From positions 48,819 to 112,818 of the forward strand of contig CAYXQO010000003.1 of assembly GCA_964467475.1 (NCBI GenBank): a DNA stretch of 64,000 bases. The letters run 5' to 3'. Within the stretch, counting starts at the first letter, position 1. The number at the start of each line of letters is the position of its first letter. This document shows, one piece after another, positions 3,076-48,683 of this stretch. The notes beneath the pieces were generated by a model. It made no database searches. It worked only from the letters and a program-made list of their open reading frames with translations, and was not told the origin of the DNA. The position numbers and the translations under genes were made by a program. Source of the DNA: an uncultured Syntrophomonadaceae bacterium. GTDB lineage: Bacteria > Bacillota > Dethiobacteria > DTU022.

Positions 3076-4278
3076 TTATGAGTTTGTTCGAGAAAAAAGA
3101 TGTCTTAGTTTACCCAGGAAGCCTTTCTTTTCTTCTTCAGCAGTGCTTTCTTCTCTTTCTGCAGTTAAAGGCAGCAGTTTTTCGGCTATTGATACTACGC
3201 ACCGGGATGCAGGTGTGAGGGGGTTGTAGAGCACAAAAGGCCTAAATTGCTTGACCGATTTTACGACATTATCATCTTTGACAATGTGTCCGATTGTCTG
3301 GGGGGTTAAATCGAGGAAGCGGTCGGTTACATCAGTAAGTCTTGTAGATACTTTTTTAGCCTCAGTAAGATTCTCAACCAGGTTAAAGACAAGCTTTATA
3401 GGAGGCTGAAACTCATTTTTAGTAAGCACTTTAATTATAGCGTAGGCATCAGAAATCGAGTGCGGTTCAGGAGTAATAACTACTACAATTTCATCTGCTG
3501 CCATGGCAAATTCAACTACATTCCTGGATATCCCCGACCCGGTGTCAATCATGATGATATCGGCGTCTTCTTCAAGGGGTTTTAGCATGCTTACTATCCT
3601 GCCGAGTTCATCCTCGGGAAGCTCAGTCAGAGATTGTAGGCCCGATCCACCAGGAATAACTTGAACCCCTTCCGGTCCTTCAACTATAATATCCCTCAAA
3701 TTCATTTCCCTGTCCTCAACCAGGGTGTTTATAGTATATTTAGACTGTAGGCCCAACAAAACATCGACATTGGCGGTGCCCAGGTCAGCATCTAACAAGT
3801 ATACTTTTTGACCTCGCTGAGAAAGAGCAATGGCGGTATTGATCACAAAATTAGTTTTTCCGGTGCCTCCTTTGCCACTGGTTACTGCAATTACCTTGGG
3901 GCGTTTTTTCTTGTTGTCGCTTTGTTTTGGTTTATAGCCAGGGATTTTATCCTGGTTTTCTTTCTGGTTATTTAGTACTGCAACGTTTTCTTTTCCTGTT
4001 TCATTAATATTGTCTTTCATTTTTTTACCGGGTTTAAATGCAGGGACCCTGGCAGAAGGCACGGTGATCATCTCCTTGGTGTGCAGGTGCCGAATTCGTT
4101 TAAGAGAGCGTTCTTTTATCTTAAATGTTCCAAATCCTTTTATACTCACACTTTCTCCCCGGGCTAAGCTCTCGCCTATGGAGTTAATTGTGGCCTCTAC
4201 AATTTTTTTTGCTTCACGATTTGTAATGTTTGCTTTTTCAGCTGTTTTTTTTACCAGGTCATTTTTATTCATGTTCAT
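3076..4278 (-). CDS. Fusion protein with an N-terminal HU/IHF-like DNA-binding domain and a C-terminal MinD/FlhG-family P-loop ATPase
   Basis: Residues 1-90 resemble HU (NKNDLVKK...GFGTFKIKER...R.P.FKPGK). After a K/N-rich linker comes the deviant Walker A VTSGKGGTGKTNF and DADLG, very similar to FlhG at 47787. The ATG start has a GGGGG RBS. Confidence 0.75.
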   Translation of the reverse strand: MNMNKNDLVKKTAEKANITNREAKKIVEATINSIGESLARGESVSIKGFGTFKIKERSLKRIRHLHTKEMITVPSARVPAFKPGKKMKDNINETGKENVAVLNNQKENQDKIPGYKPKQSDNKKKRPKVIAVTSGKGGTGKTNFVINTAIALSQRGQKVYLLDADLGTANVDVLLGLQSKYTINTLVEDREMNLRDIIVEGPEGVQVIPGGSGLQSLTELPEDELGRIVSMLKPLEEDADIIMIDTGSGISRNVVEFAMAADEIVVVITPEPHSISDAYAIIKVLTKNEFQPPIKLVFNLVENLTEAKKVSTRLTDVTDRFLDLTPQTIGHIVKDDNVVKSVKQFRPFVLYNPLTPASRCVVSIAEKLLPLTAEREESTAEEEKKGFLGKLRHLFSRTNS

Positions 4279-4509
4279 TTATTCCCCCGATGATAAAGAA
4301 GGTAAATACATATTCAACAAAAATGTACTTCTATCCTGCAAATCCGTCTATCTCCCCTGTATTATATTTCGGCAGGAATTAATTTTAATTTAGAGAAGCA
4401 TTAAAGCTAAAAAGATTATTATATTAGTAGCACCTGGAACCCTTTAATTTTAAACTTCGTGCTTAAGAAAAAAAGAAAGCTGCCGAATATTTAGGTAGAG
4501 GTGAAAAAT

Positions 4510-5322
4510 ATGGCCAGTTTTGGCGATAAATTGCGTTATAAGAGAATGGGAATGGGGCTATCTCTGAAAGAAGCTTCGAAGAAAGCAAAGATCAAACAAA
4601 AACATTTAAAAGCCCTGGAAGAGGAAAACCTTCTTATTTTCTCGGATAAAGAAAGTATAATCGAGTTGATTAAGAAATATGCTCCAGTGGTGGGTATTGA
4701 CCAGGTAGAGTTAATTGATGATTTTAATGTTCTTTGGACCGATTCAAGGATGGCCAAAGCCTACTTGCAGCAGAGCTTCAATAAGCAAAAAACTTATAAT
4801 CTCGGACTTGAGAGAATACCGGTCTACGGTACAATTATTCTTGCAGCCGCACTGTTTTTGTCGGTTGGTGGTTTTTTGGTATGGGAATATGTGATTGATT
4901 TTTCACCTCTAGGAGAAGAAAGGGCTCATCAAACGGAAGCCGGTCCGGAGACACTCCCTGAAAAAGAATTTATGCTGGGCGAAGACCACACATTGAAGGA
5001 AGAAGCTAAACGTGATCTTTCCGCAAAAAGCGATCCCGGGGAAAAAGAGTATATCGAGGGTTCGAAGCAGTTTGCAGAAAGGACAAGCGAGGAACTTGCC
5101 GAAGAAAATAAAGAAAAAGCGGAAAAAAAAGAGGTAGAAGATGACACCTATTTATTGGAAGAAGAAGGAGCACCGGTTCCCCGTACGGGCGGAAATTACA
5201 ACCTCTTTTACACGGGGCTTTCTTTCTTAATCGGTGGATTATTACTGTTGTTCTGCACCAAGAATCCCTTTTATCAATTTCTGACGAAAGCTCCCCTTTT
5301 ATCTAAAAACCTACCCAAATAA
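4510..5322 (+). CDS. RodZ-like protein (XRE-type HTH followed by transmembrane segments)
   Basis: N-terminal FGDKLRYKRMGMGLSLKEASKKAKIKQKHLKALEEENL matches the RodZ HTH. Two hydrophobic segments follow, with an acidic linker. Confidence 0.6.
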   Translation: MASFGDKLRYKRMGMGLSLKEASKKAKIKQKHLKALEEENLLIFSDKESIIELIKKYAPVVGIDQVELIDDFNVLWTDSRMAKAYLQQSFNKQKTYNLGLERIPVYGTIILAAALFLSVGGFLVWEYVIDFSPLGEERAHQTEAGPETLPEKEFMLGEDHTLKEEAKRDLSAKSDPGEKEYIEGSKQFAERTSEELAEENKEKAEKKEVEDDTYLLEEEGAPVPRTGGNYNLFYTGLSFLIGGLLLLFCTKNPFYQFLTKAPLLSKNLPK

Positions 5323-5541: not shown

Positions 5542-5808
5542 ATGCTTGTACTTACAAGAAAAGCCCAACAAAGTATCATGATTGGTGAAGATATCGAGGT
5601 AATGGTTGCCTCTATTGATGGCAATTCAGTGCGTATCGGGATCAGGGCACCGAAAGATATAAAAATCCTTCGTAAAGAAACATTTGAAGAAGTTCGCATG
5701 GAAAACCTTAGGGCTATTGAGGCCGCGGCAAAATATACCGGGGAGATAGACGGAATCCTTACTCAAGGACAGTCTCAGGAAGAACCAAAAAAACAGCAGG
5801 ATGATTGA
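5542..5808 (+). CDS. csrA: Carbon storage regulator CsrA
   Basis: MLVLTRK..SIMIGEDIEV.V......VRIGI.APKDI.ILR.E is the canonical CsrA fold sequence. Confidence 0.9.
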   Translation: MLVLTRKAQQSIMIGEDIEVMVASIDGNSVRIGIRAPKDIKILRKETFEEVRMENLRAIEAAAKYTGEIDGILTQGQSQEEPKKQQDD

Positions 5809-5870
5809 TTAAAAGCTCCTTTTCTACTCGGTTATGTTTTAACGAGGACTTAAAGGGGAGATGCAGGGCT

Positions 5871-6254
5871 ATGAAAATAGATGGTATAGATCCCTTGTTG
5901 TTAAATAAAATCAAGGAACAACAGGCCTTAAAAGAGGTTCAACCAGCGGAAAAATCTGCTGCGGAAACCCGGGTTACCAGGGAGGGCCGTTCCGGTCAAG
6001 AACGCGATAAAACGCTTTCTGGTAATGCTTACGAACAAAAAGTTCGCGAAACCATTGACAGGCTTAACAGGGATGCTAAAAATGAAGGGCAACCACTACG
6101 ATTCAGTGTGCATAAAGAATCAAAACTGTGGCACATTGAAGTTTATGATATCGAAAACAATAAAAAAATCCGGGAAATTCCTACCGAAAAAGCCCTCGAA
6201 GTTGCCAACCGAATGCAAAGTCTTTTCGGTATTTTAATGGACGAGAAAAGGTAA
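5871..6254 (+). CDS. flaG: Flagellar protein FlaG
   Basis: The C-terminal LRFSVHKESKLWHIEVYDIENNKKIREIP matches the FlaG family. The start is at ATG 5871 behind an AAAGGGGAG RBS. The longer ORF from 5805 has no RBS. Confidence 0.75.
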   Translation: MKIDGIDPLLLNKIKEQQALKEVQPAEKSAAETRVTREGRSGQERDKTLSGNAYEQKVRETIDRLNRDAKNEGQPLRFSVHKESKLWHIEVYDIENNKKIREIPTEKALEVANRMQSLFGILMDEKR

Positions 6255-6464: not shown

Positions 6465-8240
6465 TTGATGATTGTTAAGAGGTTATGCCCGGATTGTGAG
6501 TGTGATGCTGTTATGTTTAAAAATGTTTTGCCATGGTTAATTTGGATAGGTATCATAACCCTGGCAGTTTTCTATTTTGGTTTAGATGAAATAACTCTAG
6601 TTTTGGGAGAAGCAGAATGGAGCACAATGTTGCTGCTTACCGGGCTACAGGTCGGCACCTTAAGTATAACTGCATACCAGTGGCAATTTTTGATTAACAA
6701 GAGCAGTGGAAACATTACTTTGGGCAGATCATTAGCGATTAACCTGGCCGGGAATTACGTGGAAAGTGTTACTCCTTCAGTGAAGGTCGGCGGGGAATCA
6801 GCTAAAATTTTTTTACTTCATAAACACACTGCTCTACCATACCAACAGTTAGCCGGTATTATGCTCGCTCTCAAGTATTTTTCACTGCTTCCGTTCCTGG
6901 GTTTAATTTCTGTGGCCCTGGGTACTGCTTTTTTTATATATGAATTGCCCCGGATAATATTGCCGGTTTTTCTGGTTTTCCTGTTATTCTTTTTATTGAT
7001 TGCCTGGTTCCATTTGAAAAGTGGAAAGGATAAGTCAGGCGTGCAGCGAGAGGAAAATAAAGGCACCGGTCAACCCGGGGAAACTGCGGAAGCCGGCTAT
7101 GAATATCGTGACCTTGCATCTGGTAAAAGGCTTAAAGCTTTCTTTAAAAAGAAAGCTCTATCACTGAGTAACTTCGTTCAACGTGCATCTTTTTATTCAC
7201 GGGGATTGGTGAGCACTGAAGAAAGCGTTCTTCTGGTTGTTTTTTCTGGGTTAATCTGGGTACTGTATCCACTGAAGGTTTACCTGGTAGCCCGGATGAT
7301 CGGTTTAGAGGCCGGACTGGTTACCGTTACTATAGCTACCTTTACCGCTTACCTGGTAAGCATGGTTCCGCTTTTGCCGGGCGGGTTGGGTTCTTTTGAA
7401 GGAACTATGGCATTGATGTTTACTGTAAGTGGACTGCCCCCTGCAGAAGGCTTAACGGTAGCGCTTCTAACCCGTTTAATCACCTTCTGGTTTCCTCTCT
7501 TGTTATCATCTATAAGTGCAGGATACCTTGCTTTAAATCATAACCACTATACGCAATTAAAAAGAACAAATGTAACTGATTTTTATCATGGTACTACCCT
7601 TGGTCAAAATTCTGGAAGGAACGCCAAAAAAGATTCTCCTTTTTTTAGTTTGTCACAGAAAATGGAAAGCATTGCCGCCCGTTCAGCATTTGTTGCTTTC
7701 TTATATCATAAAATATTTTATAAAAAAATGTTGGAAAAGGAATTTTACCTGGCCGAGTTAAAACCGGGAAGCACTGTTTTGCACATCGGAAGCGGTGCTT
7801 ATCCTTATACAGCTTTCTACCTGGCAGATAAAGGTTTTAAAGTCGAAGCCCTGGATTGCAACGAGAAAGCGGTTGTGGAAGCGGAAAACCTAATCAAAAA
7901 AATGAGTTATGATGATAAAATTAATACGCTTTATGGCAATGGGGTTAATTTAAAGGGAAAAAGCTATGACGCGATATGGGTTTCGTTAAACATTTCTCCC
8001 AAAGAAAAGGTTTTACAGAACGCTTATTTCTTGCTTAAAGATAGCGGGGTGCTGGTTTATCGCAATCTTCCACCGTGGGTGGGCAAGAACCGCTGTTCAA
8101 CAAACGGTTTAAACTGGCCGGGTGAATATGTGGCAAACAAATGCACTTCTTTACTGGGCACGGAAAGCCTGGTAGTTCAAAAGATATCAAAACCGGTGCA
8201 GCAGGGTATTCCCCGTGCATGTTGTAGTGTGCGTAATTGA
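6465..8240 (+). CDS. Membrane protein: flippase-like (lysyl-PG synthase TM-type) N-terminal domain fused to a C-terminal Rossmann/methyltransferase-like domain
   Basis: About 8 TM helices with UPF0104-like character. The C-terminus carries VLHIGSGAYPYTA...EALDCNEKAV (a GxGxG SAM-fold motif). The start is ambiguous. Confidence 0.55.
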   Translation: MMIVKRLCPDCECDAVMFKNVLPWLIWIGIITLAVFYFGLDEITLVLGEAEWSTMLLLTGLQVGTLSITAYQWQFLINKSSGNITLGRSLAINLAGNYVESVTPSVKVGGESAKIFLLHKHTALPYQQLAGIMLALKYFSLLPFLGLISVALGTAFFIYELPRIILPVFLVFLLFFLLIAWFHLKSGKDKSGVQREENKGTGQPGETAEAGYEYRDLASGKRLKAFFKKKALSLSNFVQRASFYSRGLVSTEESVLLVVFSGLIWVLYPLKVYLVARMIGLEAGLVTVTIATFTAYLVSMVPLLPGGLGSFEGTMALMFTVSGLPPAEGLTVALLTRLITFWFPLLLSSISAGYLALNHNHYTQLKRTNVTDFYHGTTLGQNSGRNAKKDSPFFSLSQKMESIAARSAFVAFLYHKIFYKKMLEKEFYLAELKPGSTVLHIGSGAYPYTAFYLADKGFKVEALDCNEKAVVEAENLIKKMSYDDKINTLYGNGVNLKGKSYDAIWVSLNISPKEKVLQNAYFLLKDSGVLVYRNLPPWVGKNRCSTNGLNWPGEYVANKCTSLLGTESLVVQKISKPVQQGIPRACCSVRN

Positions 8241-8269
8241 TGAACCTTCAGATAGAAAGGAGAAAAAAA

Positions 8270-8845
8270 ATGAGTATCATCCCGTCAATTGTTGCAGCGA
8301 TGGAGAAAAAAGCAGCGACCAGTTCTCTGCTGGTTGCCCTTTATTCACGTATATATAATGAAGTAATCCGTAACGAAATTTCCCTGGCCGGAATTACTGC
8401 AGGCGACCTGGTTGTAAATGTCGGCTGTGGAGGTATTCCTTTTTCTGCTATCCAGGTAGCCAGGCTTACTGGAGCCCGGGTTTTGGCTATAGATTGCGAC
8501 GAGGATGCTGTCCATAGCGCACGCAGGTGTATTTCCTCACTTGGAATGGAAGGGCAGGTTGAAGTTGCCTGCGCAGATGGCAGCAAACCACTACCGGTTG
8601 AATTTGATGTTGCCCTGGTTGCCCTGCAGGCTGAACCTAAAAAACTTTTGCTCGATAACCTTATGGCAGGATGCACTTCCCATGGTCGCCTGGTATTCAG
8701 GCAGCCAAGAAGAGAACTGTCGCATCAGTATGATTTACTGCCTGATGAACCAGCTTATTGCGACGAGATCAAGCAAAAGCAGGTTACTTTCGACTCCTCT
8801 GTGCTTTATATTAGTGGTTGTATCGTAGATAAGGAAACGAAGTAA
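8270..8845 (+). CDS. Rossmann-fold methyltransferase-like protein, paralogous to the C-terminus of the upstream gene
   Basis: VVNVGCGGIPFSAIQVARLTGARVLAIDCDEDAV parallels the upstream C-terminal domain. ATG 8270 follows an AAGGAG RBS. Confidence 0.55.
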   Translation: MSIIPSIVAAMEKKAATSSLLVALYSRIYNEVIRNEISLAGITAGDLVVNVGCGGIPFSAIQVARLTGARVLAIDCDEDAVHSARRCISSLGMEGQVEVACADGSKPLPVEFDVALVALQAEPKKLLLDNLMAGCTSHGRLVFRQPRRELSHQYDLLPDEPAYCDEIKQKQVTFDSSVLYISGCIVDKETK

Positions 8846-16147: not shown

Positions 16148-16376
16148 AAAGCGCAGGGTGCTTATTCCAAAAATGCTAACATGAAGCGAACACATTGTGT
16201 TAGCAATTGCTAATTGTTTGTATGATCTGTATGTTAGTTTTTGGTGTGGTTCGGCAAAAAAGATAGATTAACCAGGGTAAAGAAGTGGTTCTAAGAAGGG
16301 AATAACCAGAATATGTAGAAATTAACATTGCAACTCAAAAATATTGCAGGAACCTCGGAAAGGCAGACGATTAGTG

Positions 16377-17939
16377 ATGAAAATAGCCGGTGATGGAGTA
16401 TACCGGGGAGAAACGTTAAATAACAAACCGCACGGCCGAGGAACTGTGACCTGGCCAGACGGCAGCCGGTACACCGGTGAATTTAAAAACGGGTATTTTC
16501 ATGGTGAAGGTACTTTTATATGGTCGCATGGCGACAAGTATGAAGGACAGTGGAAAGAAGACCGCATGCATGGGCGGGGCACCTACCTTTTTGCTGATTG
16601 GCGCAAATATGAAGGGCAATGGTGTGAAGACCAAATGCACGGGCTGGGCACTTATTATTGGCCCAGCGGGGAAAAATACGAGGGTGAATTTGTAAACGGC
16701 CATTATGAGGGCCACGGCACCTATTCCTGGCCAGATGGCAAATTGTATTCGGGAAAGTGGAAGAGATCTTGCCGCCACGGGGAAGGCAAAATGACCTGGC
16801 CTGATGGCAAAAGTTATTCCGGATGTTGGTTTGAAGACCTCAGGCATGGCTATGGAGAACAAGTCTGGCCCGACGGGCGTTCTTATGCTGGTGAGTGGAA
16901 AAGGAACCGGATGCATGGGCATGGTATCTACACATTTGCTGATGGTTCGCGCTATGAAGGTTTGTTCAAAGAAGGCAGTTTTGTCGACAAGGGAAAATTT
17001 TATTATCCCGACGGTTCCAGGTTCAAGGGTAAAATTTTCAACGGGCTTCCCCATGGCAAAGGAATCGTTTTGTTTTCCGATGGCAGCCAGTTCTACGGAA
17101 AGTTTGAGTACGGTTACGACATCGGGTGGGGAGAATGCTATTATTCTGACGGATCGAAATATATCGGTGAAAGCAAACAGAATTTACCCCATGGTGAGGG
17201 CAGGTTAAATTATCCGGATGGTTCTCGCTATGTAGGGATGTTTAAAAATGGAGTTCCCGATGATTCGGGAAGTTTCTTTTTTAACGATGGATCTCGTTTT
17301 GCCGGAGATATGAAGCATGGTCGTCCACACGGTCAGGGGAGAGTAACTTTTAGGGATGGATCGAATTACACGGGCGAATTTAGGAAAGGTTCTAGAGAGG
17401 GTAAAGGCCGACAAGCCTGGCCTGATGGTTCCGAATACGAGGGGGAATGGTTTGACGACCGAATCAGCGGCCAGGGAGTCTACTGTTCTGCTTCGGGAAA
17501 TCGCTACGAAGGGTATTTTTATAACAACCTACGTCATGGATGGGGCTGCCTGGAGCAGGCTGACGGAGCAGAATTTGAAGGGAACTGGAAAAATGGTAAA
17601 ATGCACGGCTATGGCCGCTGCCGGTTTGCCCGGGGTGGCTTATATGAAGGAGAATTTGCCGGTGGCAAGTTTCATGGTTGGGGCGTGAGAACCTGGGCTG
17701 CCGGCAGTATCTACAAGGGCCGCTGGTGGAAAGGATTAAGGCACAAGTACGGAACTTATTCGCCTGTTGTTGGTGATCAATACAATGGAGGATGGTTTTT
17801 GGACCGCTGTCACGGACACGGCCGCATAATAACCGGAGAAGTGTTTAAAAAGGGTTTTTGGTTTTTAGGTTTTGGACCGTTCAGGGTTACCGAAGAGCAC
17901 TTAGATTTCTCTTCTGAAGGCAACTTTTCTGAAAGCTAA
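16377..17939 (+). CDS. MORN-repeat protein (~22 tandem MORN repeats)
   Basis: The unit Y.G.W...K.HG.G is repeated throughout. The repeats also create ORF artefacts in other frames. Confidence 0.75.
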   Translation: MKIAGDGVYRGETLNNKPHGRGTVTWPDGSRYTGEFKNGYFHGEGTFIWSHGDKYEGQWKEDRMHGRGTYLFADWRKYEGQWCEDQMHGLGTYYWPSGEKYEGEFVNGHYEGHGTYSWPDGKLYSGKWKRSCRHGEGKMTWPDGKSYSGCWFEDLRHGYGEQVWPDGRSYAGEWKRNRMHGHGIYTFADGSRYEGLFKEGSFVDKGKFYYPDGSRFKGKIFNGLPHGKGIVLFSDGSQFYGKFEYGYDIGWGECYYSDGSKYIGESKQNLPHGEGRLNYPDGSRYVGMFKNGVPDDSGSFFFNDGSRFAGDMKHGRPHGQGRVTFRDGSNYTGEFRKGSREGKGRQAWPDGSEYEGEWFDDRISGQGVYCSASGNRYEGYFYNNLRHGWGCLEQADGAEFEGNWKNGKMHGYGRCRFARGGLYEGEFAGGKFHGWGVRTWAAGSIYKGRWWKGLRHKYGTYSPVVGDQYNGGWFLDRCHGHGRIITGEVFKKGFWFLGFGPFRVTEEHLDFSSEGNFSES

Positions 17940-18017: not shown

Positions 18018-18112
18018 TCCGATCGACAAAGGCAAACCTGTCGAGAGGCAGGGGCGCAAAACCAAGGGCCTTAGGAATTACAATGGGCTAAGGCAGCCTG
18101 GTTGCCAGATTG
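18018..18112 (+). ncRNA. Candidate c-di-GMP-I (GEMM) riboswitch aptamer
   Basis: GGCAAACC precedes a hairpin CCUGUC-GAGA-GGCAGG with a GNRA loop. Then comes GGCGCAAAACC, a P3 hairpin GCCUUAGG...CUAAGGC, and a closing GGUUGCC. This parallels the Vc2-type consensus GGCAAACC-hairpin(GAAA)-GACGCAAAGCC. Confidence 0.6.
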
Positions 18113-18162: not shown

Positions 18163-18342
18163 TGTATTATATCGAAAGACTGAACCCGGCTATAATATTT
18201 AACTATATTTGTTTTATTTACAATTTCAATTACTAAGGTTAACTTAAACCGGGGTAAAGGATATCGCTTTATACTTAATCCGTTTAAGCTTGATGCCGAT
18301 AATAATAACAGCAACACTAGCAGAATTTAGGTGCGATCAAAT

Positions 18343-19464
18343 ATGCGACTAGTACCCGTTTGGGCTTTGCGGCCCGGGATGACGGTAGCTAAAAAAGTTT
18401 CCAGTGGTGAGGGAGCAGCTCTTCTCAATGCCGGGGTAAAACTGGAAATGGAATATATTCAACAGCTTAAGAAGCTTAATATTCGTGGAGTTTACGTTCA
18501 TGACAACTTGATACCGGATATTGAGGTTGAAGATGTGATCCTTGATGAGACCAGGGAAAAGGCGGTAAGCCTGGTTAAGGATACTTTGACCGGAATAAAA
18601 GGCCAGAGCGATAAAAAATACACCCAGTTTATTTCTGTAAAAAAAGAATTGTCCAACCTTCTCGATGATATAGTTGGCCAGCTTCTCAGTAATAAAAATC
18701 TCACAGTTAACTTATCCGATATCAGGTATACTGACAATTACACATTTTCACATTCAGTTAATGTTGCAGTTTTGGCTATTATGACCGGGATATCGCTGGG
18801 GATGGGCAAATCTGCCTTGAAGAATATGGGGCTTGGTGCTTTTCTCCATGACCTGGGGAAAGTGGTCGTCCCCTTAAAGATATTAAACAAACCTGATCGT
18901 TTGGGTGAAGATGAGCGTCTGGAAATTGAAAGGCATCCGGCTTACGGCTTTGACCTGATCAAAAGCCGCCAGTTGTTTAACGGCCCTACACTGTCAATTG
19001 TTTACAAACATCACGAGAGAATTGATGGCAGTGGTTATCCGCAGGGTTTGTATGGAGACAAAATTGAATTATACCCCAAAGTGTGTGCTGTTGCGGATGT
19101 TTATGATGCCCTGGTATCGGATCGTCCTTATCGGCCCGGCTTTATGCCTCACAAAGCGATGGAAATAATGGATCAAGAATGTTCAGGATATGATCTTGAT
19201 ATCATGCAAACTTTTTACCACCACATTCCCGCTTACCCGGTGGGAACTATAGTGGGCTTAACTAACGGCTTTGTCGGTGTGGTGGTACACAATACCCATG
19301 GGTATCCATACCGGCCCAAAGTCAGGGTGATTTCTGACAGGGAAGATTATATGCCCCTGGATAGCTTTGAAGTAGATCTCCTGGAAAAACTTGATGTGGC
19401 TGTGGACCGGGTTTACCTGGATGATGAACTGCCGCAGCAATTATTAAACCGGGGTATATCTTGA
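18343..19464 (+). CDS. HD-GYP domain c-di-GMP phosphodiesterase
   Basis: HSVNVA...FLHDLGK...HHERIDGSGYP motifs. ATG 18343 follows a TAGGTG RBS. Confidence 0.85.
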   Translation: MRLVPVWALRPGMTVAKKVSSGEGAALLNAGVKLEMEYIQQLKKLNIRGVYVHDNLIPDIEVEDVILDETREKAVSLVKDTLTGIKGQSDKKYTQFISVKKELSNLLDDIVGQLLSNKNLTVNLSDIRYTDNYTFSHSVNVAVLAIMTGISLGMGKSALKNMGLGAFLHDLGKVVVPLKILNKPDRLGEDERLEIERHPAYGFDLIKSRQLFNGPTLSIVYKHHERIDGSGYPQGLYGDKIELYPKVCAVADVYDALVSDRPYRPGFMPHKAMEIMDQECSGYDLDIMQTFYHHIPAYPVGTIVGLTNGFVGVVVHNTHGYPYRPKVRVISDREDYMPLDSFEVDLLEKLDVAVDRVYLDDELPQQLLNRGIS

Positions 19465-25982: not shown

Positions 25983-26009
25983 TTGTGTGTTAGAACAGGA
26001 GGTTTAATT

Positions 26010-26441
26010 ATGACAATTGAACAGACCGCCGTAGATGCAAGCCAACGCAAGCTGGTAGAGTTTATTTTCCCCCGAGGCATCCCCGGGTTGGAACTGTACC
26101 GCCGCTTTTTAATAGAACCGATTCCCGGTAACAGGCTTTTTGCCATGCTGGTTGCGGCAGATGATCCTTCAATCGGGATGATCCTGGTTGATCCCCTGCC
26201 CTTTTTCCCCCGTTACAGTGTGGACCTGCAGAGAAACGACCGCCGCGATTTAATGCTCAAAAGAGATCGCGACCTGGTGATATTTACTACCGTTACCGTG
26301 GATGAAGCTATGCTCTATACCAACCTTGCCGCCCCGATCCTGGTCAATGTGGCCCAGAAACGCGGCAAGCAGCTTATCGTGCCCCATCGCTGCGACGATA
26401 TGCGGGTACCGCTTGATACAGTGGTAGGGCCGGAGAATTAA
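26010..26441 (+). CDS. fliW: Flagellar assembly factor FliW
   Basis: FPRGIPGLE...F.L.P...FA.L...DDPSIGMILVDP motifs. ATG 26010 follows a CAGGAGG RBS. Confidence 0.85.
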   Translation: MTIEQTAVDASQRKLVEFIFPRGIPGLELYRRFLIEPIPGNRLFAMLVAADDPSIGMILVDPLPFFPRYSVDLQRNDRRDLMLKRDRDLVIFTTVTVDEAMLYTNLAAPILVNVAQKRGKQLIVPHRCDDMRVPLDTVVGPEN

Positions 26442-27170: not shown

Positions 27171-27215
27171 GTAAGTCCAATATTGAGAAAGAACTGGTAT
27201 TAGTAAACTAAAAGA

Positions 27216-27295
27216 CTGTTAAAGGCTAACCCATAGTGATATGGGGGCGCAAAACCGTGGATCCGTCCAGTGCCGGATTGCCAGGTTGCCAGTCT
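27216..27295 (+). ncRNA. Candidate c-di-GMP-I (GEMM) riboswitch aptamer in the flgB leader
   Basis: GGCUAACC, then hairpin CCCAUA-GUGA-UAUGGG (GNRA loop), then GGCGCAAAACC, then a P3 hairpin, then GGUUGCCAG. The architecture matches the element at 18018. Confidence 0.55.
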
Positions 27296-46679: not shown

Positions 46680-47784
46680 AAAATACCTAGCCGATGATAT
46701 GAAAGAGGGCATGATGCAGGTAAAAAAAGACCTTGGCATGGAGGCAGTTATCCTTTACAGTCGACCGGTGAGACGTAAGGGGTTGCTTGGCTTTTTTACC
46801 CCAAAACAGATGGAGATTGTTGCGGCTGTGGATCCAAAAAGAAAAGAGCCCCCTGCAAACAATTCCACGCTCAAAAAAGTTGCTGAGAAGGACAGGGAGA
46901 TCAGCTACATGAATGAAGAGATCAAGGAGTTAAAGGAAAAAATTTCAGAGATTTCTGCTGTGGCGGCGATCAATGACCAGGAAGAATCGGTAGAATCAAA
47001 AGTTGTAACCAGGAAAAAAAGCTCTGCTTACTGGAGAAACTATCTTGAGCACCATGATCTTGACCCGACTTTATTGGAGGAAGTTTTTAGTGAAGCTGAG
47101 GCTGAGGCTGCAAAACCGGGGCGTATGAGTCATGCTCAGATGGCTGAAATACTTAAAGGTAAAGTGGAAGGTAAAATAAGCTGTGCAAACGGATGCAGCA
47201 ACCGCACCCAGATATTTATTGGCCCTACAGGGGTGGGCAAGACCACAACTTTGGCTAAACTGGCAGCTCGGCACTCACTTAATCAAGATGAAAAAGTGGG
47301 ACTGGTTACAATTGATCATTACCGCATTGGTGCTGTGGATCAACTGTGTGCTTATGCAGAAATTATGGATTTACCGCTTGAAGTAGTAATGAGTCCACAG
47401 GATCTATTTAAGGTAATGATGCGCCTTGAAAATTGCGACCGAATTTTAATTGATACGGCTGGCAGATCCACGGGGAACAATGAACAACTTAGTGATTTGG
47501 CCTCATACATAGAAATGCTGAAACCTGCTGATATTTACCTGGTGTTAAGTGCTACTACCAGGAGCCAGGATTTACAGTTTATTACTGAGCGTTTTAAAAA
47601 ACTCAGCTATAACCGTCTGGTTATAACCAAGCTTGATGAAACCAGTTCTTATGGTGCGATTATGAATAGTTCATATTATACAAAAATGCCGCTGGTTTAT
47701 CTGACCGACGGCCAGCAGGTGCCTGAAGACTTGAAGCTGGCTGCAGAAGCCGATCCGGCCGGCATGTTGTGGAGGAAAGGGTAA
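46669..47784 (+). CDS. flhF: Flagellar SRP-like GTPase FlhF
   Basis: GPTGVGKTTT G1 motif with SRP-GTPase architecture. Confidence 0.9.
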   Translation: MKIRKYLADDMKEGMMQVKKDLGMEAVILYSRPVRRKGLLGFFTPKQMEIVAAVDPKRKEPPANNSTLKKVAEKDREISYMNEEIKELKEKISEISAVAAINDQEESVESKVVTRKKSSAYWRNYLEHHDLDPTLLEEVFSEAEAEAAKPGRMSHAQMAEILKGKVEGKISCANGCSNRTQIFIGPTGVGKTTTLAKLAARHSLNQDEKVGLVTIDHYRIGAVDQLCAYAEIMDLPLEVVMSPQDLFKVMMRLENCDRILIDTAGRSTGNNEQLSDLASYIEMLKPADIYLVLSATTRSQDLQFITERFKKLSYNRLVITKLDETSSYGAIMNSSYYTKMPLVYLTDGQQVPEDLKLAAEADPAGMLWRKG

Positions 47785-47786
47785 AT

Positions 47787-48683
47787 ATGGGAGACCAGGC
47801 TGAACAACTAAGAACTGCTGCCAGGGAAAAAAGAACGGAAAGTTCTTATGAAAAGAAGAGCTCGTTTGCAGGCAAATCAAAGGTTTTTACCATCACCAGC
47901 GGTAAGGGTGGGGTTGGTAAAACCAGCCTGGTGGTTAATCTTGGATTGGCCCTTACCCGTATTGGCTATAAAGTAGTGGTTATTGATGCTGATCTGGGAT
48001 TGCCCAACATTGATGTCATGACCAATTCATTTCCTTCTCACAATATCGATGATGTGATCAGCGGGACGAAAAACATCAGGGAAATAATTATGGAAGGGCC
48101 AATGGGTTTAAAGATGGTGCCGGGGGGATCCGGTTTCTATGATTTAACCAACCTGTCGCAGACGAAGCGGGATATTTTATTAAAACAATTGGTTGATTTG
48201 GAAAACGAAGGCGATTTTATTTTAATTGATACGGCTGCTGGCATATCGCGTAACGTAATCAGCATGGTTGAGGCGGGCGATGAGTTCATCTTGATAACTA
48301 CACCGGAACCTACTGCTATGACTGATGCGTATAGCTTGTTGAAAGTTGTTTTTGAAAGAGGTCTTAGAAAAGAAGGGCGGGTGGTAGTCAATCTTACCCG
48401 CAACCCGGATCACGGTCAAAAAGTTTATTCCGGTTTTAACCGGGTTATCCAACAATACCTACCGGAAATGAATTTAAATTACCTGGGTGATGTCAGGTAT
48501 GACCCGGCAGTGAGCAATGCAGTCCATAATTTTACTCCTTTTGTGGTCAGTCGCCCGCAAAGCATTGCTTCGACGGCGGTCAACAGGATTGCCTGGCGGA
48601 TTGCGGCAAATAGTGAAGTAGAAGAACAGCCCAGGCAGGGCTTGGCCGGTTTTATAGACAGGTTGAAAGGTAAAGGTGCATGA
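47787..48683 (+). CDS. flhG: MinD-type ATPase FlhG (YlxH)
   Basis: Deviant Walker A SGKGGVGKTS. Positioned after flhF. Confidence 0.85.
   Translation: MGDQAEQLRTAAREKRTESSYEKKSSFAGKSKVFTITSGKGGVGKTSLVVNLGLALTRIGYKVVVIDADLGLPNIDVMTNSFPSHNIDDVISGTKNIREIIMEGPMGLKMVPGGSGFYDLTNLSQTKRDILLKQLVDLENEGDFILIDTAAGISRNVISMVEAGDEFILITTPEPTAMTDAYSLLKVVFERGLRKEGRVVVNLTRNPDHGQKVYSGFNRVIQQYLPEMNLNYLGDVRYDPAVSNAVHNFTPFVVSRPQSIASTAVNRIAWRIAANSEVEEQPRQGLAGFIDRLKGKGA

What the first reader, a model, noticed from the sequence alone, without database searches (positions are those of the whole stretch)
3076..4278. HU-like DNA-binding domain fused to a FlhG/MinD-type ATPase
The N-terminal ~90 aa read as a bacterial histone-like HU/IHF fold. 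The C-terminal ~270 aa carry the deviant Walker A (SGKGGTGKT) of MinD/ParA/FlhG ATPases and closely resemble the FlhG encoded at 47787. A nucleoid-binding module covalently attached to a positioning ATPase is an unusual architecture. It could tether a MinD/FlhG-like patterning system directly to DNA, for example for flagellar number or placement control, or for cargo segregation. It is encoded away from the fla operon, next to mnmA.
Basis: partly seen in the sequence, partly recalled or inferred. Interest (0 to 1): 0.65.

Follow-up and report, generated by a model that had tools for sequence, protein, structure and literature searches.

The report
HU-fused FlhG-like ATPase paired with RodZ-like gene
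This is a real, rare gene that joins a bacterial "histone-like" DNA-binding domain to a flagellar-type (FlhG) positioning ATPase with a membrane-binding tail; it always sits beside a RodZ-like cell-shape gene, which suggests an ATP-controlled link between chromosome and cell membrane that has not been described.

Summary
Window 3076-4278 (- strand) is one 400-aa ORF. It has a full-length HU domain (PF00216, E 1.8e-25), a disordered linker, a MinD/ParA-type ATPase and a C-terminal amphipathic helix.

The fusion is not an artefact: about 50 protein clusters (47-77% identity) share it. It is also rare, with one full-length representative among 1.84 billion.

The ATPase belongs to the FlhG/FleN lineage, not MinD. 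It keeps the catalytic residues, the FliY/GpsB-binding triad and the membrane-targeting helix. It lacks the DQAxxLR motif that lets FlhG activate FlhF. It is not a copy of the resident flhG (37% identity). It branches among PilZNR-ATPase paralogues, though that nesting is only weakly supported.

New findings:
1. In 8 of 8 loci the gene is divergently paired with a RodZ-like gene.
2. A SigH-type promoter is conserved in 8 of 8 loci, and SigD-like elements occur in the window's subclade.
3. A second, independent FlhG-HU fusion (HU at the C-terminus) occupies the flhF-flhG-fliA slot in another lineage.

The best reading is an ATP-gated nucleoid-to-membrane bridge that works with the RodZ-like partner. 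This is inferred, not shown. I rate it a new variant of a known kind, with interest about 0.6.

The parts
3076..4278 (-). HU-FlhG-like fusion ORF (400 aa; stop codon 3076-3078; probable true start is the ATG at 4272, Met3)
4003..4272 (-). HU (Bac_DNA_binding) domain, residues 3-92. The arm keeps R57/K60/R63 (HU R55/R58/R61). The intercalating Pro63 is replaced by Leu65.
3898..4002 (-). Disordered linker, residues 93-127, ending in the basic stretch KPKQSDNKKKRPK. Its length varies from 10 to 65 aa across the family.
   Evidence: (pLDDT below 50 for residues 95-123)
3175..3897 (-). FlhG/FleN-lineage MinD/ParA-type ATPase core, residues 128-368. K136 is the signature Lys, K141 the Walker A Lys, and D163/D165 and D245 the catalytic Asps. 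K283/R313/F321 correspond to the GtFlhG FliY/GpsB-binding residues K177/R207/F215.
3853..3879 (-). Deviant Walker A, SGKGGTGKT (residues 134-142)
   Evidence: read directly; invariant in alignment A1
3088..3126 (-). C-terminal amphipathic helix KKGFLGKLRHLFS (residues 385-397). It is homologous to the FlhG membrane-targeting sequence.
   Evidence: helix 387-397; hydrophobic moment 0.56; aligned to GtFlhG FFAKLRQLF
4312..4339 (-). SigH-type promoter element GCAGGATAG-N12-GTTGAAT (AGGA-N18-GAAT), ending 33 nt upstream of the ATG at 4278. An equivalent element is present in 8 of 8 homologous loci.
4367..4392 (-). SigD/sigma-28-like element TAAA-N15-GCCGAAA(T), oriented toward the fusion gene
4501..5322 (+). 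Divergent partner gene for a RodZ-like protein. It has HTH_25, a DFNxxWSDxxxAKAY motif, a TM helix, an acidic linker and an LPXTG-like VPRTGG followed by a hydrophobic tail. The probable start is the ATG at 4510.
   Evidence: adjacency
4463..4489 (+). SigD-like element TTAA-N15-GCCGAATA, oriented toward the RodZ-like-csrA-flaG genes
5542..6254 (+). csrA (5542-5808) and flaG (5805-6254), downstream of the partner gene. This arrangement is conserved only in the window's subclade.
47769..48683 (+). Comparator, not part of the module: the resident canonical flhG (DQAEQLR motif), sitting between flhF and the fliA/sigD-type sigma gene

Best explanation
The gene encodes a paralogue of the flagellar ATPase FlhG. 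Its N-terminal FlhF-activating helix has been replaced by a complete HU DNA-binding domain.

Shown by computation:
- the domain architecture;
- the FlhG/FleN lineage of the ATPase;
- intact catalytic residues;
- an intact FliY/GpsB-type partner-binding triad;
- a C-terminal helix homologous to the FlhG membrane-targeting sequence;
- conserved HU core and DNA-contact residues;
- obligatory divergent pairing with a RodZ-like membrane-protein gene;
- a conserved SigH-type promoter, plus SigD-like elements in the window's subclade.

Inferred mechanism:
1. HU folds only as an intertwined dimer, so the protein is a constitutive dimer parked on the nucleoid.
2. ATP binding closes the two ATPase domains into the sandwich dimer, as in FlhG and MinD, and releases the two amphipathic helices.
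3. The helices bind the membrane, which bridges chromosomal DNA to the membrane.
4. ATP hydrolysis releases the membrane contact.
5. At the membrane, the closed dimer presents the FlhG partner surface to the cytoplasmic HTH domain of the RodZ-like protein, and possibly to FliM/FliY.

The module would thereby couple nucleoid position to lateral envelope sites where elongation and, in this subclade, flagellar assembly take place. Without DQAxxLR it cannot stimulate FlhF, so it does not duplicate the resident FlhG.
For: Architecture.

The fusion is real and conserved: about 50 clusters.

Lineage:
- PDB phmmer gives FleN 9e-55 and GtFlhG 8.5e-43, against MinD 3e-30 to 3e-16 and Soj 3e-6.
- Foldseek gives 4RZ2 FlhG at TM 0.92 and 2.0 A.
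- In the NJ tree, the FlhG-like proteins separate from NCBIfam-verified MinD at 98% bootstrap, and the N-HU clade has 98% support.

Conserved residues:
- Catalytic: K136, K141, D163, D165 and D245 are invariant in 45 of 45.
- Partner surface: GtFlhG K177/R207/F215 correspond to K283 (45/45), R/K313 (45/45) and F321 (45/45). MinD lacks the F215 equivalent.
- PMC12327844 shows this triad binds FliY and GpsB in the ATP dimer.

Membrane-targeting helix: FLGKLRHLF aligns to GtFlhG FFAKLRQLF. L391 is invariant, K390 and F395 are nearly so, and AF2 predicts a helix at 387-397.

HU DNA contacts: R55 in 45/45, R58 as R/K in 45/45, R61 as R/K in 44/45, and K80/K83/K86 in at least 40/45.

Partner: the RodZ-like gene is divergently adjacent in 8 of 8 loci. 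It is absent from the PilZNR sister clade. The fusion and its partner change together in two subtypes.

Precedents:
- B. subtilis RodZ interacts strongly with MinD and MinJ in two-hybrid assays (PMC5778138).
- E. coli MinD binds DNA non-specifically and tethers it to liposomes (PMC3792344; bioRxiv 2025.02.06.636808).

An independent FlhG-HU fusion sits in a fla operon.

Promoters: the SigH-like element occurs in 8 of 8 loci, against a mean of 0.11 of 8 in 2000 shuffles. The SigD-like element occurs in 4 of 8 loci in each direction, against a shuffle maximum of 1-2.
Against: - There is no experimental or multimer-model evidence for DNA binding, membrane binding, ATP gating or a RodZ-like interaction.
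- In the window's subclade the HU arm has lost the intercalating Pro63 (Leu65) and the flanking glycines. DNA bending, and perhaps DNA binding, may therefore be altered.
- A constitutive HU dimer carries two membrane helices at all times. ATP gating requires that the helix is sequestered in the open state, as in monomeric GtFlhG. This is assumed, not shown.
- Gene adjacency is divergent rather than operonic.
- The RodZ-like protein scores far below the curated RodZ cutoffs.
- SigH-type elements are common in this window's intergenic DNA, with 8 in 5.4 kb. The promoter says little about the biological process.
Confidence: 0.45

Rival explanations
1. It is a DNA-bound regulator of flagellar gene expression. 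In this reading it works like a FleN/FlhG anti-activator that is brought to DNA directly by HU instead of through an enhancer-binding protein such as FleQ or FlrA. It would tune flagellar number at the level of transcription.
For: - The best PDB sequence hit is FleN, and FleN-FleQ complexes rank high in the fold search.
- SigD-like elements lie on both divergent genes in the window's subclade.
- The partner gene is followed by csrA-flaG.
- An independent HU fusion to the operon-encoded FlhG sits next to fliA in another lineage.
Against: - HU-type domains bind DNA with little sequence specificity (established knowledge).
- No FleQ/FlrA-type partner is seen in the window.
- Deep-branch members (P0050, P0040, P0036) have no flagellar neighbours and no SigD-like elements.
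- The conserved C-terminal membrane helix has no role in this model.
Confidence: 0.15
2. It is a chromosome-anchoring or nucleoid-occlusion-type factor used at the transition to stationary phase or at sporulation. In this reading it resembles RacA or Noc and has nothing to do with flagella.
For: - A SigH-type promoter is conserved in 8 of 8 loci.
- The protein combines a DNA-binding and a membrane-binding module.
- The pairing with a RodZ-like gene echoes RodZ's roles in septum placement in B. subtilis.
Against: - SigH-like elements are frequent upstream of ordinary genes in this window, including csrA and the flgB operon region. SigH regulons can be very broad in some Bacillota (PMC12456013).
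- The window holds no sporulation genes.
- The FliY/GpsB-binding triad and the SigD-like elements point toward a link with flagella or the elongasome.
Confidence: 0.15
3. The HU domain no longer binds DNA and serves only as a dimerisation or protein-interaction module. The protein would then be a constitutively dimeric, membrane-associated FlhG-like switch.
For: - Pro63 is lost in 28 of 45 members. G60 is kept in only 7 of 45 members and G66 in 16 of 45, and both are replaced in the window protein.
- The HU survey documents HU clades (CCDC81, HU-HIG) that probably lost DNA binding (PMC5499826).
Against: - R55/R58/R61 and K80/K83/K86 are conserved in nearly all members. Deep-branch members keep a fully canonical RxGRNPxTGE arm.
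- The linker next to the ATPase is basic in both subtypes.
Confidence: 0.12
4. It is an artefact: two separate genes (hup and a MinD-like gene) joined by a sequencing or assembly error.
For: None was found.
Against: The ORF is continuous. The same fusion appears in about 50 clusters from independent assemblies and sources, with variable linkers. An identical protein is on record (P0001).
Confidence: 0.01

Closest known systems
FlhG (YlxH) of Geobacillus thermodenitrificans and Bacillus subtilis; FleN of Pseudomonas
   Same: It has the same ATPase fold and lineage. The deviant Walker A with its signature Lys, the catalytic Asp, the FliY/GpsB-binding triad K177/R207/F215 and the C-terminal amphipathic membrane-targeting helix are all shared.
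   Different: It has no N-terminal DQAxxLR helix, which is the FlhF activator and whose Q8A mutant phenocopies an flhG deletion (PMC12327844). It carries HU plus a linker in that position. It is not encoded after flhF. It is only 37% identical to the resident FlhG.
PilZNR-ATPase orphan paralogues (about 360-385 aa, Clostridia and Negativicutes; not described in the searched literature)
   Same: They are the closest relatives of the ATPase core (49% identity), and the N-HU clade nests among them. They also lack DQAxxLR and keep the C-terminal helix.
   Different: Their N-terminal module is PilZNR (PF12945) rather than HU. They have no RodZ-like neighbour. Two of five examined loci have a divergent 69-aa gene upstream (Zn_ribbon_8 in L010, no Pfam hit in L097).
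FlhG with a C-terminal HU domain (P0161, P0271-P0275, P0211)
   Same: It combines the same two domains, an FlhG-type ATPase and HU.
   Different: The domain order is reversed and the origin is independent (a separate clade with 98% bootstrap). It keeps DQAxxLR. It is the operon-encoded FlhG between flhF and fliA. Its lineage is different: neighbouring genes carry Por_Secre_tail domains.
E. coli MinD acting as a DNA-membrane tether (Di Ventura et al. 2013, PMC3792344)
   Same: It is a MinD-family ATPase with a C-terminal amphipathic helix that also contacts DNA and can tether DNA to membranes.
   Different: MinD binds DNA through the ATPase surface, with no dedicated domain. The protein here is not a MinD: it scores below the TIGR01968 and TIGR01969 cutoffs and separates from MinD in the tree. 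There is no minC or minE neighbour.
Noc and RacA of Bacillus; membrane-anchored bacterial HU-CCDC81 proteins
   Same: All are proposed or shown to link chromosomal DNA to the cell envelope. HU-CCDC81 proteins combine HU with a TM segment and a peptidoglycan-binding domain (PMC5499826). The information on Noc and RacA comes from my own knowledge.
   Different: They use different folds or anchors: ParB/CTP with an N-terminal helix in Noc, DivIVA in RacA, and a TM helix in HU-CCDC81. None of them contains a MinD/FlhG ATPase switch.
RodZ interactions with the Min system in B. subtilis (PMC5778138)
   Same: A RodZ-type HTH-TM protein partners with a MinD-family ATPase.
   Different: In B. subtilis the partners are unlinked genes and the ATPase is the true MinD. 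Here the pairing is a fixed divergent gene pair, and the partner in the window lacks RodZ_C.

Membership tests
FlhG/FleN (flagellar number and placement ATPase) | MinD/ParA-type deviant Walker A with a signature lysine, plus the catalytic Asp residues | tested here: met
   SGKGGTGKT is present. K136, K141, D163, D165 and D245 are invariant in 45 of 45. K141 maps to Gt K36 and D165 to Gt D60.
FlhG/FleN (flagellar number and placement ATPase) | Closer in sequence, structure and phylogeny to FlhG/FleN than to MinD or ParA | tested here: met
   Bootstrap support against verified MinD is 98%.
FlhG/FleN (flagellar number and placement ATPase) | C-terminal amphipathic membrane-targeting helix | tested here: met
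   Sequence homology to the GtFlhG helix, conservation, a predicted helix and a hydrophobic moment of 0.56. Membrane binding itself cannot be tested here.
FlhG/FleN (flagellar number and placement ATPase) | FliY/FliM (and GpsB) binding residues K177/R207/F215 | tested here: met
   K283, R/K313 and F321 are each conserved in 45 of 45.
FlhG/FleN (flagellar number and placement ATPase) | N-terminal DQAxxLR activator helix that stimulates FlhF | tested here: not met
   0 of 55 N-HU proteins have the motif, against 109 of 185 relatives with a short N-terminus of FlhG-type length. The window's own FlhG has DQAEQLR.
FlhG/FleN (flagellar number and placement ATPase) | Encoded directly downstream of flhF in the flagellar operon | tested here: not met
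   That slot is occupied by 47769..48683. The fusion gene lies about 43 kb away.
MinD (septum site-determining ATPase) | Reaches the curated MinD model cutoffs | tested here: not met
   TIGR01968 scores 115.2 bits against a cutoff of 212.9, and TIGR01969 scores 143.7 against 201.75.
MinD (septum site-determining ATPase) | minC or minE neighbourhood, and clustering with MinD in a tree | tested here: not met
   No min genes appear in any of the 8 loci. The protein separates from MinD at 98% bootstrap.
HU/IHF (PF00216) | Full-length match above the gathering threshold, with the alpha1-alpha2-beta-arm-alpha3 topology | tested here: met
   89.4 bits against 22.4, covering 1-90/90. DSSP on the model confirms the topology. 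The alignment to HU 4QJN has no gaps.
HU/IHF (PF00216) | Arm and body DNA-contact residues (R55, R58, R61, K80, K83, K86) and the aromatic dimer core (F47, F50, F79) | tested here: met
HU/IHF (PF00216) | Intercalating Pro63 at the arm tip | tested here: not met
   The window protein has Leu65 at this position. Pro is retained in 17 of 45 family members, which belong to the deep subtype.
HU/IHF (PF00216) | DNA binding and bending | not testable with these tools
   Requires EMSA, FRET or a structure with DNA.
ParA/Soj partition ATPase | Adjacent parB or centromere, and close similarity to Soj/ParA | tested here: not met
   No parB appears in any locus. Soj 1WCV scores E 3e-6, against 9e-55 for FleN.
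RodZ (for the partner gene 4501-5322) | N-terminal HTH_25 followed by a single TM helix | tested here: met
   HTH_25 scores E 3.2e-10. The hydrophobic segment after residue 105 is read from the alignment.
RodZ (for the partner gene 4501-5322) | C-terminal RodZ_C (DUF4115) domain, and scores reaching the curated RodZ models | tested here: not met
   The window protein has no RodZ_C, although the deep-branch partners do. NCBIfam RodZ scores 44.6 bits against a cutoff of 375.

The most novel reading that the evidence does not exclude
The HU-FlhG-like ATPase and its RodZ-like partner may form a previously unrecognised ATP-driven module that physically couples the chromosome to the growing lateral envelope. 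In the window's subclade the partner may additionally be wall-anchored through an LPXTG-like tail. Two independent HU fusions, one of them on the operon-encoded FlhG, would then reveal a general principle: FlhG-type ATPases read the nucleoid as a positional cue when they place flagella and coordinate with cell elongation.
Probability: 0.2. Interest if true: 0.8.

Novelty: new variant of a known kind. Interest (0 to 1): 0.6.

Why it matters
ParA/MinD-family ATPases pattern bacterial cells by using either the nucleoid (ParA, PomZ) or the membrane (MinD, FlhG) as a matrix. This protein hard-wires both surfaces into one polypeptide of the FlhG lineage, and evolution made the FlhG+HU combination at least twice.

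If the inferred mechanism holds, it gives a simple natural experiment on three questions:
- how FlhG-type switches couple to the chromosome and to the cell-wall elongation machinery, extending the recent FlhG-GpsB finding in B. subtilis;
- how Bacillota that lack Noc, RacA or GpsB might link the nucleoid to the envelope;
- how N-terminal module swapping (DQAxxLR helix, PilZNR, HU) retargets one ATPase chassis.

The fixed RodZ-like partner gives a concrete, testable interaction. The limitation is that every carrier found so far is an uncultured Bacillota MAG, so testing needs heterologous work.

Tried and rejected
2. A metagenome-contig scan with alignment A1 returned 80 ATPase-only relatives and no HU fusion. 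It served only to supply MinD outgroups.
3. Cluster-member look-ups gave no organism names.
4. The afdb50 fold library was unavailable, so I could not search by structure for the architecture in named organisms.
5. I first read the SigH-type promoter as a link to sporulation and then withdrew that. The same loose motif occurs 8 times in 5.4 kb of this window's intergenic DNA, always co-oriented with the downstream gene, and SigH regulons can be broad.
6. I considered that the partner's conserved ALEEE(D/N) stretch might mimic the FliM/FliY EIDAL motif. I rejected this by reading the sequence: it is the usual third-helix motif of HTH_25/RodZ HTH domains.
7. I rejected the idea of a recent duplication of the resident flhG (37% identity; 0% bootstrap support).
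8. I rejected a ParA-type partition role (no parB; weak similarity to Soj).
9. Literature searches for an HU-MinD, HU-FlhG or PilZNR-ATPase fusion found nothing. This shows absence from the searchable library, not proof that no description exists.
Full report
**Observation.** Window 3076..4278 holds a single 400-aa ORF on the - strand. Pfam places a complete HU domain (PF00216) at residues 3-92. It covers model positions 1-90 of 90 at 89.4 bits against a cutoff of 22.4, E 1.8e-25. MinD/ParA-type P-loop families (AAA_31, ParA, CbiA, MipZ) match residues 128-366. The deviant Walker A SGKGGTGKT is at residues 134-142, nt 3853-3879.

The HU half aligns without gaps to S. aureus HU (4QJN, E 4e-21). 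An AlphaFold2 model built on a 45-sequence family alignment has mean pLDDT 78. It shows the HU topology (residues 5-94), a disordered linker (95-123), a confident ATPase (128-368) and a separate C-terminal helix (387-397). The probable true start is Met3 (ATG at 4272), because all homologues begin MNK.

**Not an artefact, and rare.** A word-indexed search of 5.8 billion proteins found an identical protein and about 50 further 90%-identity clusters with the same HU-plus-ATPase architecture. They are 367-429 aa long, 47-76% identical by BLASTP (49-77% over alignment A1), and come from several independent sources. Linker length varies from 10 to 65 residues while both domains stay in frame.

An exhaustive HMMER scan of 1.84 billion 50%-identity representatives found only one full-length representative (P0020, matching query residues 3-398). 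It also found an HU-less or truncated member of the deep branch (P0051). The systematic survey of HU-superfamily architectures never mentions an ATPase fusion and describes classical HU/IHF proteins as short (PMC5499826).

**What the ATPase is.**
- Against PDB sequences the order is FleN (E 9e-55), then G. thermodenitrificans FlhG (8.5e-43), archaeal MinD (3e-30), bacterial MinD (2e-21 to 3e-16) and Soj (3e-6).
- Foldseek gives FlhG 4RZ2 first (TM 0.92 normalised to target, 2.0 A), then FleN, MinD, and Soj/NifH.
- The protein scores far below the curated MinD cutoffs.
- I built a neighbour-joining tree of 71 ATPase cores (244 columns, 200 bootstraps) with NCBIfam-verified bacterial and archaeal-type MinD outgroups. 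All FlhG-like proteins separate from MinD at 98%. The N-terminal-HU family is monophyletic at 98%. It never groups with the window's own FlhG (0%).
- Core identity of the window protein is 69% to its own family, 49% to PilZNR-ATPases, 44% to FlhGs in general, 37% to the resident FlhG and 29-32% to MinD.
- The HU clade nests among about 360-385-aa paralogues that carry an N-terminal PilZNR domain (PF12945). Its sister is P0053 (73% bootstrap). Deeper nesting has only 33-37% support, so the idea that HU replaced PilZNR is likely but not firm.

**FlhG features kept and lost.** I mapped residues through the alignment to GtFlhG. Chain numbering is offset by +8, as the D60A entry 4RZ3 shows. The features that are kept:
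- The Walker A Lys (Gt K36 maps to K141).
- The hydrolysis Asp (Gt D60 maps to D165).
- The signature Lys K136.
- The FliY/GpsB-binding residues (K177, R207 and F215 map to K283, R313 and F321).

All of these are conserved in 45 of 45 family members, with R or K at position 313. MinD lacks the F215 equivalent. PMC12327844 documents that this triad binds FliY and the cell-wall adaptor GpsB in the ATP-bound dimer. It also documents that the N-terminal DQAxxLR motif stimulates FlhF, and that a Q8A substitution resembles an flhG deletion. The C-terminal FLGKLRHLF aligns with the GtFlhG membrane-targeting helix FFAKLRQLF and is conserved across the family.

What is lost is DQAxxLR. It occurs in 0 of 55 N-terminal-HU proteins, against 109 of 185 relatives with a short N-terminus of FlhG-type length. 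The window's own FlhG (47769..48683) has DQAEQLR and sits between flhF and the fliA-type sigma gene. The fusion is therefore of the FlhG lineage and works like an FlhG-type switch, but it fails two defining tests of a bona fide FlhG.

**The HU half.** The dimer-core aromatics (F47, F50, F79) and the DNA-contact residues are conserved: R55 in 45/45, R58 as R/K in 45/45, R61 as R/K in 44/45, and K80, K83 and K86 in at least 40/45. The intercalating Pro63 is kept in only 17 of 45 members. The window protein has Leu65 at that position.

**Two co-varying subtypes.**

| Feature | Deep subtype (e.g. P0050 from a Desulfitibacter MAG, P0040; P0036 is intermediate, with a 29-aa linker) | Window subtype |
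|---|---|---|
| Linker | 10-aa basic linker (ERRKxGLP) | 27-65-aa disordered linker |
| HU arm | canonical RxGRNPxTGE | Pro replaced by Leu, Met, Phe or Ile |
| Partner C-terminus | RodZ_C | acidic linker, then [VL]PR[TS]xG and a hydrophobic tail (LPXTG-sorting-signal-like) |
| Neighbours | no flagellar genes | csrA-flaG downstream of the partner; mnmA near the fusion gene |

**Conserved partner.** In the window and in seven homologous loci spanning the family's diversity, the fusion gene is divergently adjacent to a RodZ-like gene, with a 148-266 bp gap. The partner has HTH_25, a DFNxxWSDxxxAKAY motif and a TM helix. Every other neighbour changes in the deep branches. Five loci of the PilZNR sister clade have no such neighbour. 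The partner's only curated-model hits are RodZ models, all far below cutoff, so I call it RodZ-like. A RodZ link to a MinD-family ATPase has experimental precedent: B. subtilis RodZ interacts strongly with MinJ and MinD in two-hybrid assays, and rodZ mutants misplace septa (PMC5778138).

**Promoters.** All eight intergenic regions carry one AGGA-N17/18-GAAw element pointing at the fusion gene, 33-110 nt upstream of the start codon. In the window it lies at 4339..4312 on the - strand. By comparison, 2000 dinucleotide shuffles gave a mean of 0.11 loci out of 8 and a maximum of 3. Six of eight loci have a similar element facing the partner gene. The motif matches the SigH consensus, -35 AGGA and -10 GAAT with a 17-18 nt spacer, as reported in PMC12456013.

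The same loose motif occurs 8 times in the window's 5.4 kb of intergenic DNA, always co-oriented with the downstream gene. I therefore do not read it as a sign of sporulation.

SigD/sigma-28-like elements (TAAA-N15-GCCGAAAT at 4392..4367 on the - strand; TTAA-N15-GCCGAATA at 4463-4489 on the + strand) occur in 4 of 8 loci in each direction. All are in the window's subclade, and the shuffle maximum is 1-2. This suggests that this subclade's module is wired into the flagellar regulon.

**A second, independent fusion.** Two top FlhG-type hits (P0161, P0211) carry HU at the C-terminus. P0161 keeps DQASKLR and an MTS-like SLFERIAKV ahead of the linker and the HU domain. The family comprises six 90%-identity clusters around P0161, plus P0211. 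It forms its own clade with 98% support elsewhere in the FlhG tree. In a 400-kb contig it is the operon FlhG, in the order fliM...flhB-flhA-flhF-[flhG-HU]-fliA. FlhG and HU have thus been fused at least twice, which argues that putting an FlhG-type ATPase on DNA is functionally meaningful.

**Mechanism (inferred).** HU folds as an obligate intertwined dimer (established knowledge), so the protein should be a constitutive dimer on the nucleoid. In FlhG and MinD, ATP closes the two ATPase domains and exposes the amphipathic helices for membrane binding. Here that would bridge DNA to the membrane, and hydrolysis would release it. The closed dimer would present the conserved K283/R313/F321 surface to partners at the membrane. 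These would be the RodZ-like HTH domain and possibly FliM/FliY.

E. coli MinD already shows weak DNA-to-membrane tethering without a dedicated domain (PMC3792344; bioRxiv 2025.02.06.636808). I give this reading a confidence of 0.45. The rivals are a direct role in transcription (0.15), a chromosome anchor unrelated to flagella (0.15), HU acting as a mere dimeriser (0.12) and an artefact (0.01).

**Origin and novelty.** The window's FlhA is at most 65% identical to any named relative (Dethiobacteria MAGs), and all closer hits are unnamed MAGs. The carriers are therefore uncultured Bacillota. I found no description of this architecture, of its RodZ-like pairing or of the PilZNR-ATPase sister family in the searchable literature. 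I rate it a new variant of a known kind, with interest 0.6.

Noticed in passing
L096:8001-9215 (P0273); also P0161, P0271-P0275 and P0211: An independent family of canonical FlhG proteins (DQAxxLR present) has a C-terminal HU domain. It is encoded in the flhA-flhF-[flhG-HU]-fliA slot of an uncultured bacterium whose neighbouring genes carry Por_Secre_tail (T9SS-type) domains.
   Followed up: partly
P0053-P0120 (for example L009:8001-9119, L010:8001-9086, L011:8001-9110, L097:2722-3822): A large orphan family of FlhG-like ATPases has an N-terminal PilZNR (PF12945) domain. Members lack DQAxxLR but keep the C-terminal amphipathic helix. Two of five examined loci (L010, L097) have a divergent 69-aa gene upstream, Zn_ribbon_8 in L010. 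The PilZ-domain survey I read does not mention this family.
   Followed up: partly
window 4501-5322 (+), C-terminal about 50 residues; also L004, L006, L094 and L095 partners: In the window's subclade the RodZ-like partner has lost RodZ_C. It ends instead in an acidic linker followed by [VL]PR[TS]xG, a hydrophobic segment of about 20 aa and a charged tail. This resembles an LPXTG sortase sorting signal on a protein that already has an N-in TM anchor.
   Followed up: no
window 27214-27293 (+) and 18022-18110 (+): There are two c-di-GMP-I riboswitch aptamers. One lies just upstream of the flgB flagellar operon (27409). The other, the GGC variant, lies upstream of an HD_5 (HD-GYP-type) gene at 18331-19464.
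   Followed up: partly
window 5542-5808 (csrA) and 25983-26441 (fliW): csrA is separated by about 20 kb from fliW, which sits after flgK-flgL. Instead csrA follows the RodZ-like gene and precedes flaG. This arrangement is conserved in the window's subclade (L004, L006, L094, L095).
   Followed up: partly
window 3558-3584 (-): A strict sigma-28-like match (TAAA-N15-GCCGATA) lies inside the fusion gene on its coding strand. It could be chance or an internal promoter.
   Followed up: no
L093:7269-8273: In the P0036 locus, an actin-like ALP/ParM-type gene (ALP_N plus MreB-like_C) lies directly downstream of the HU-ATPase gene.
   Followed up: no
window 6465-8240 (+): A 591-aa protein fuses an LPG_synthase_TM-type membrane domain to a C-terminal methyltransferase domain. 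A second small methyltransferase-like ORF follows at 8237-8845.
   Followed up: no
window 16344-17939 (+): A 531-aa protein consists of 13 MORN repeats and lies just upstream of the c-di-GMP riboswitch-HD_5 unit.
   Followed up: no
P0051 (285 aa; 10 member sequences; 2.6-kb contig): A member nested inside the deep N-HU clade lacks the HU domain and starts just before the basic linker. It is either a truncated gene call or a secondary loss of HU.
   Followed up: no
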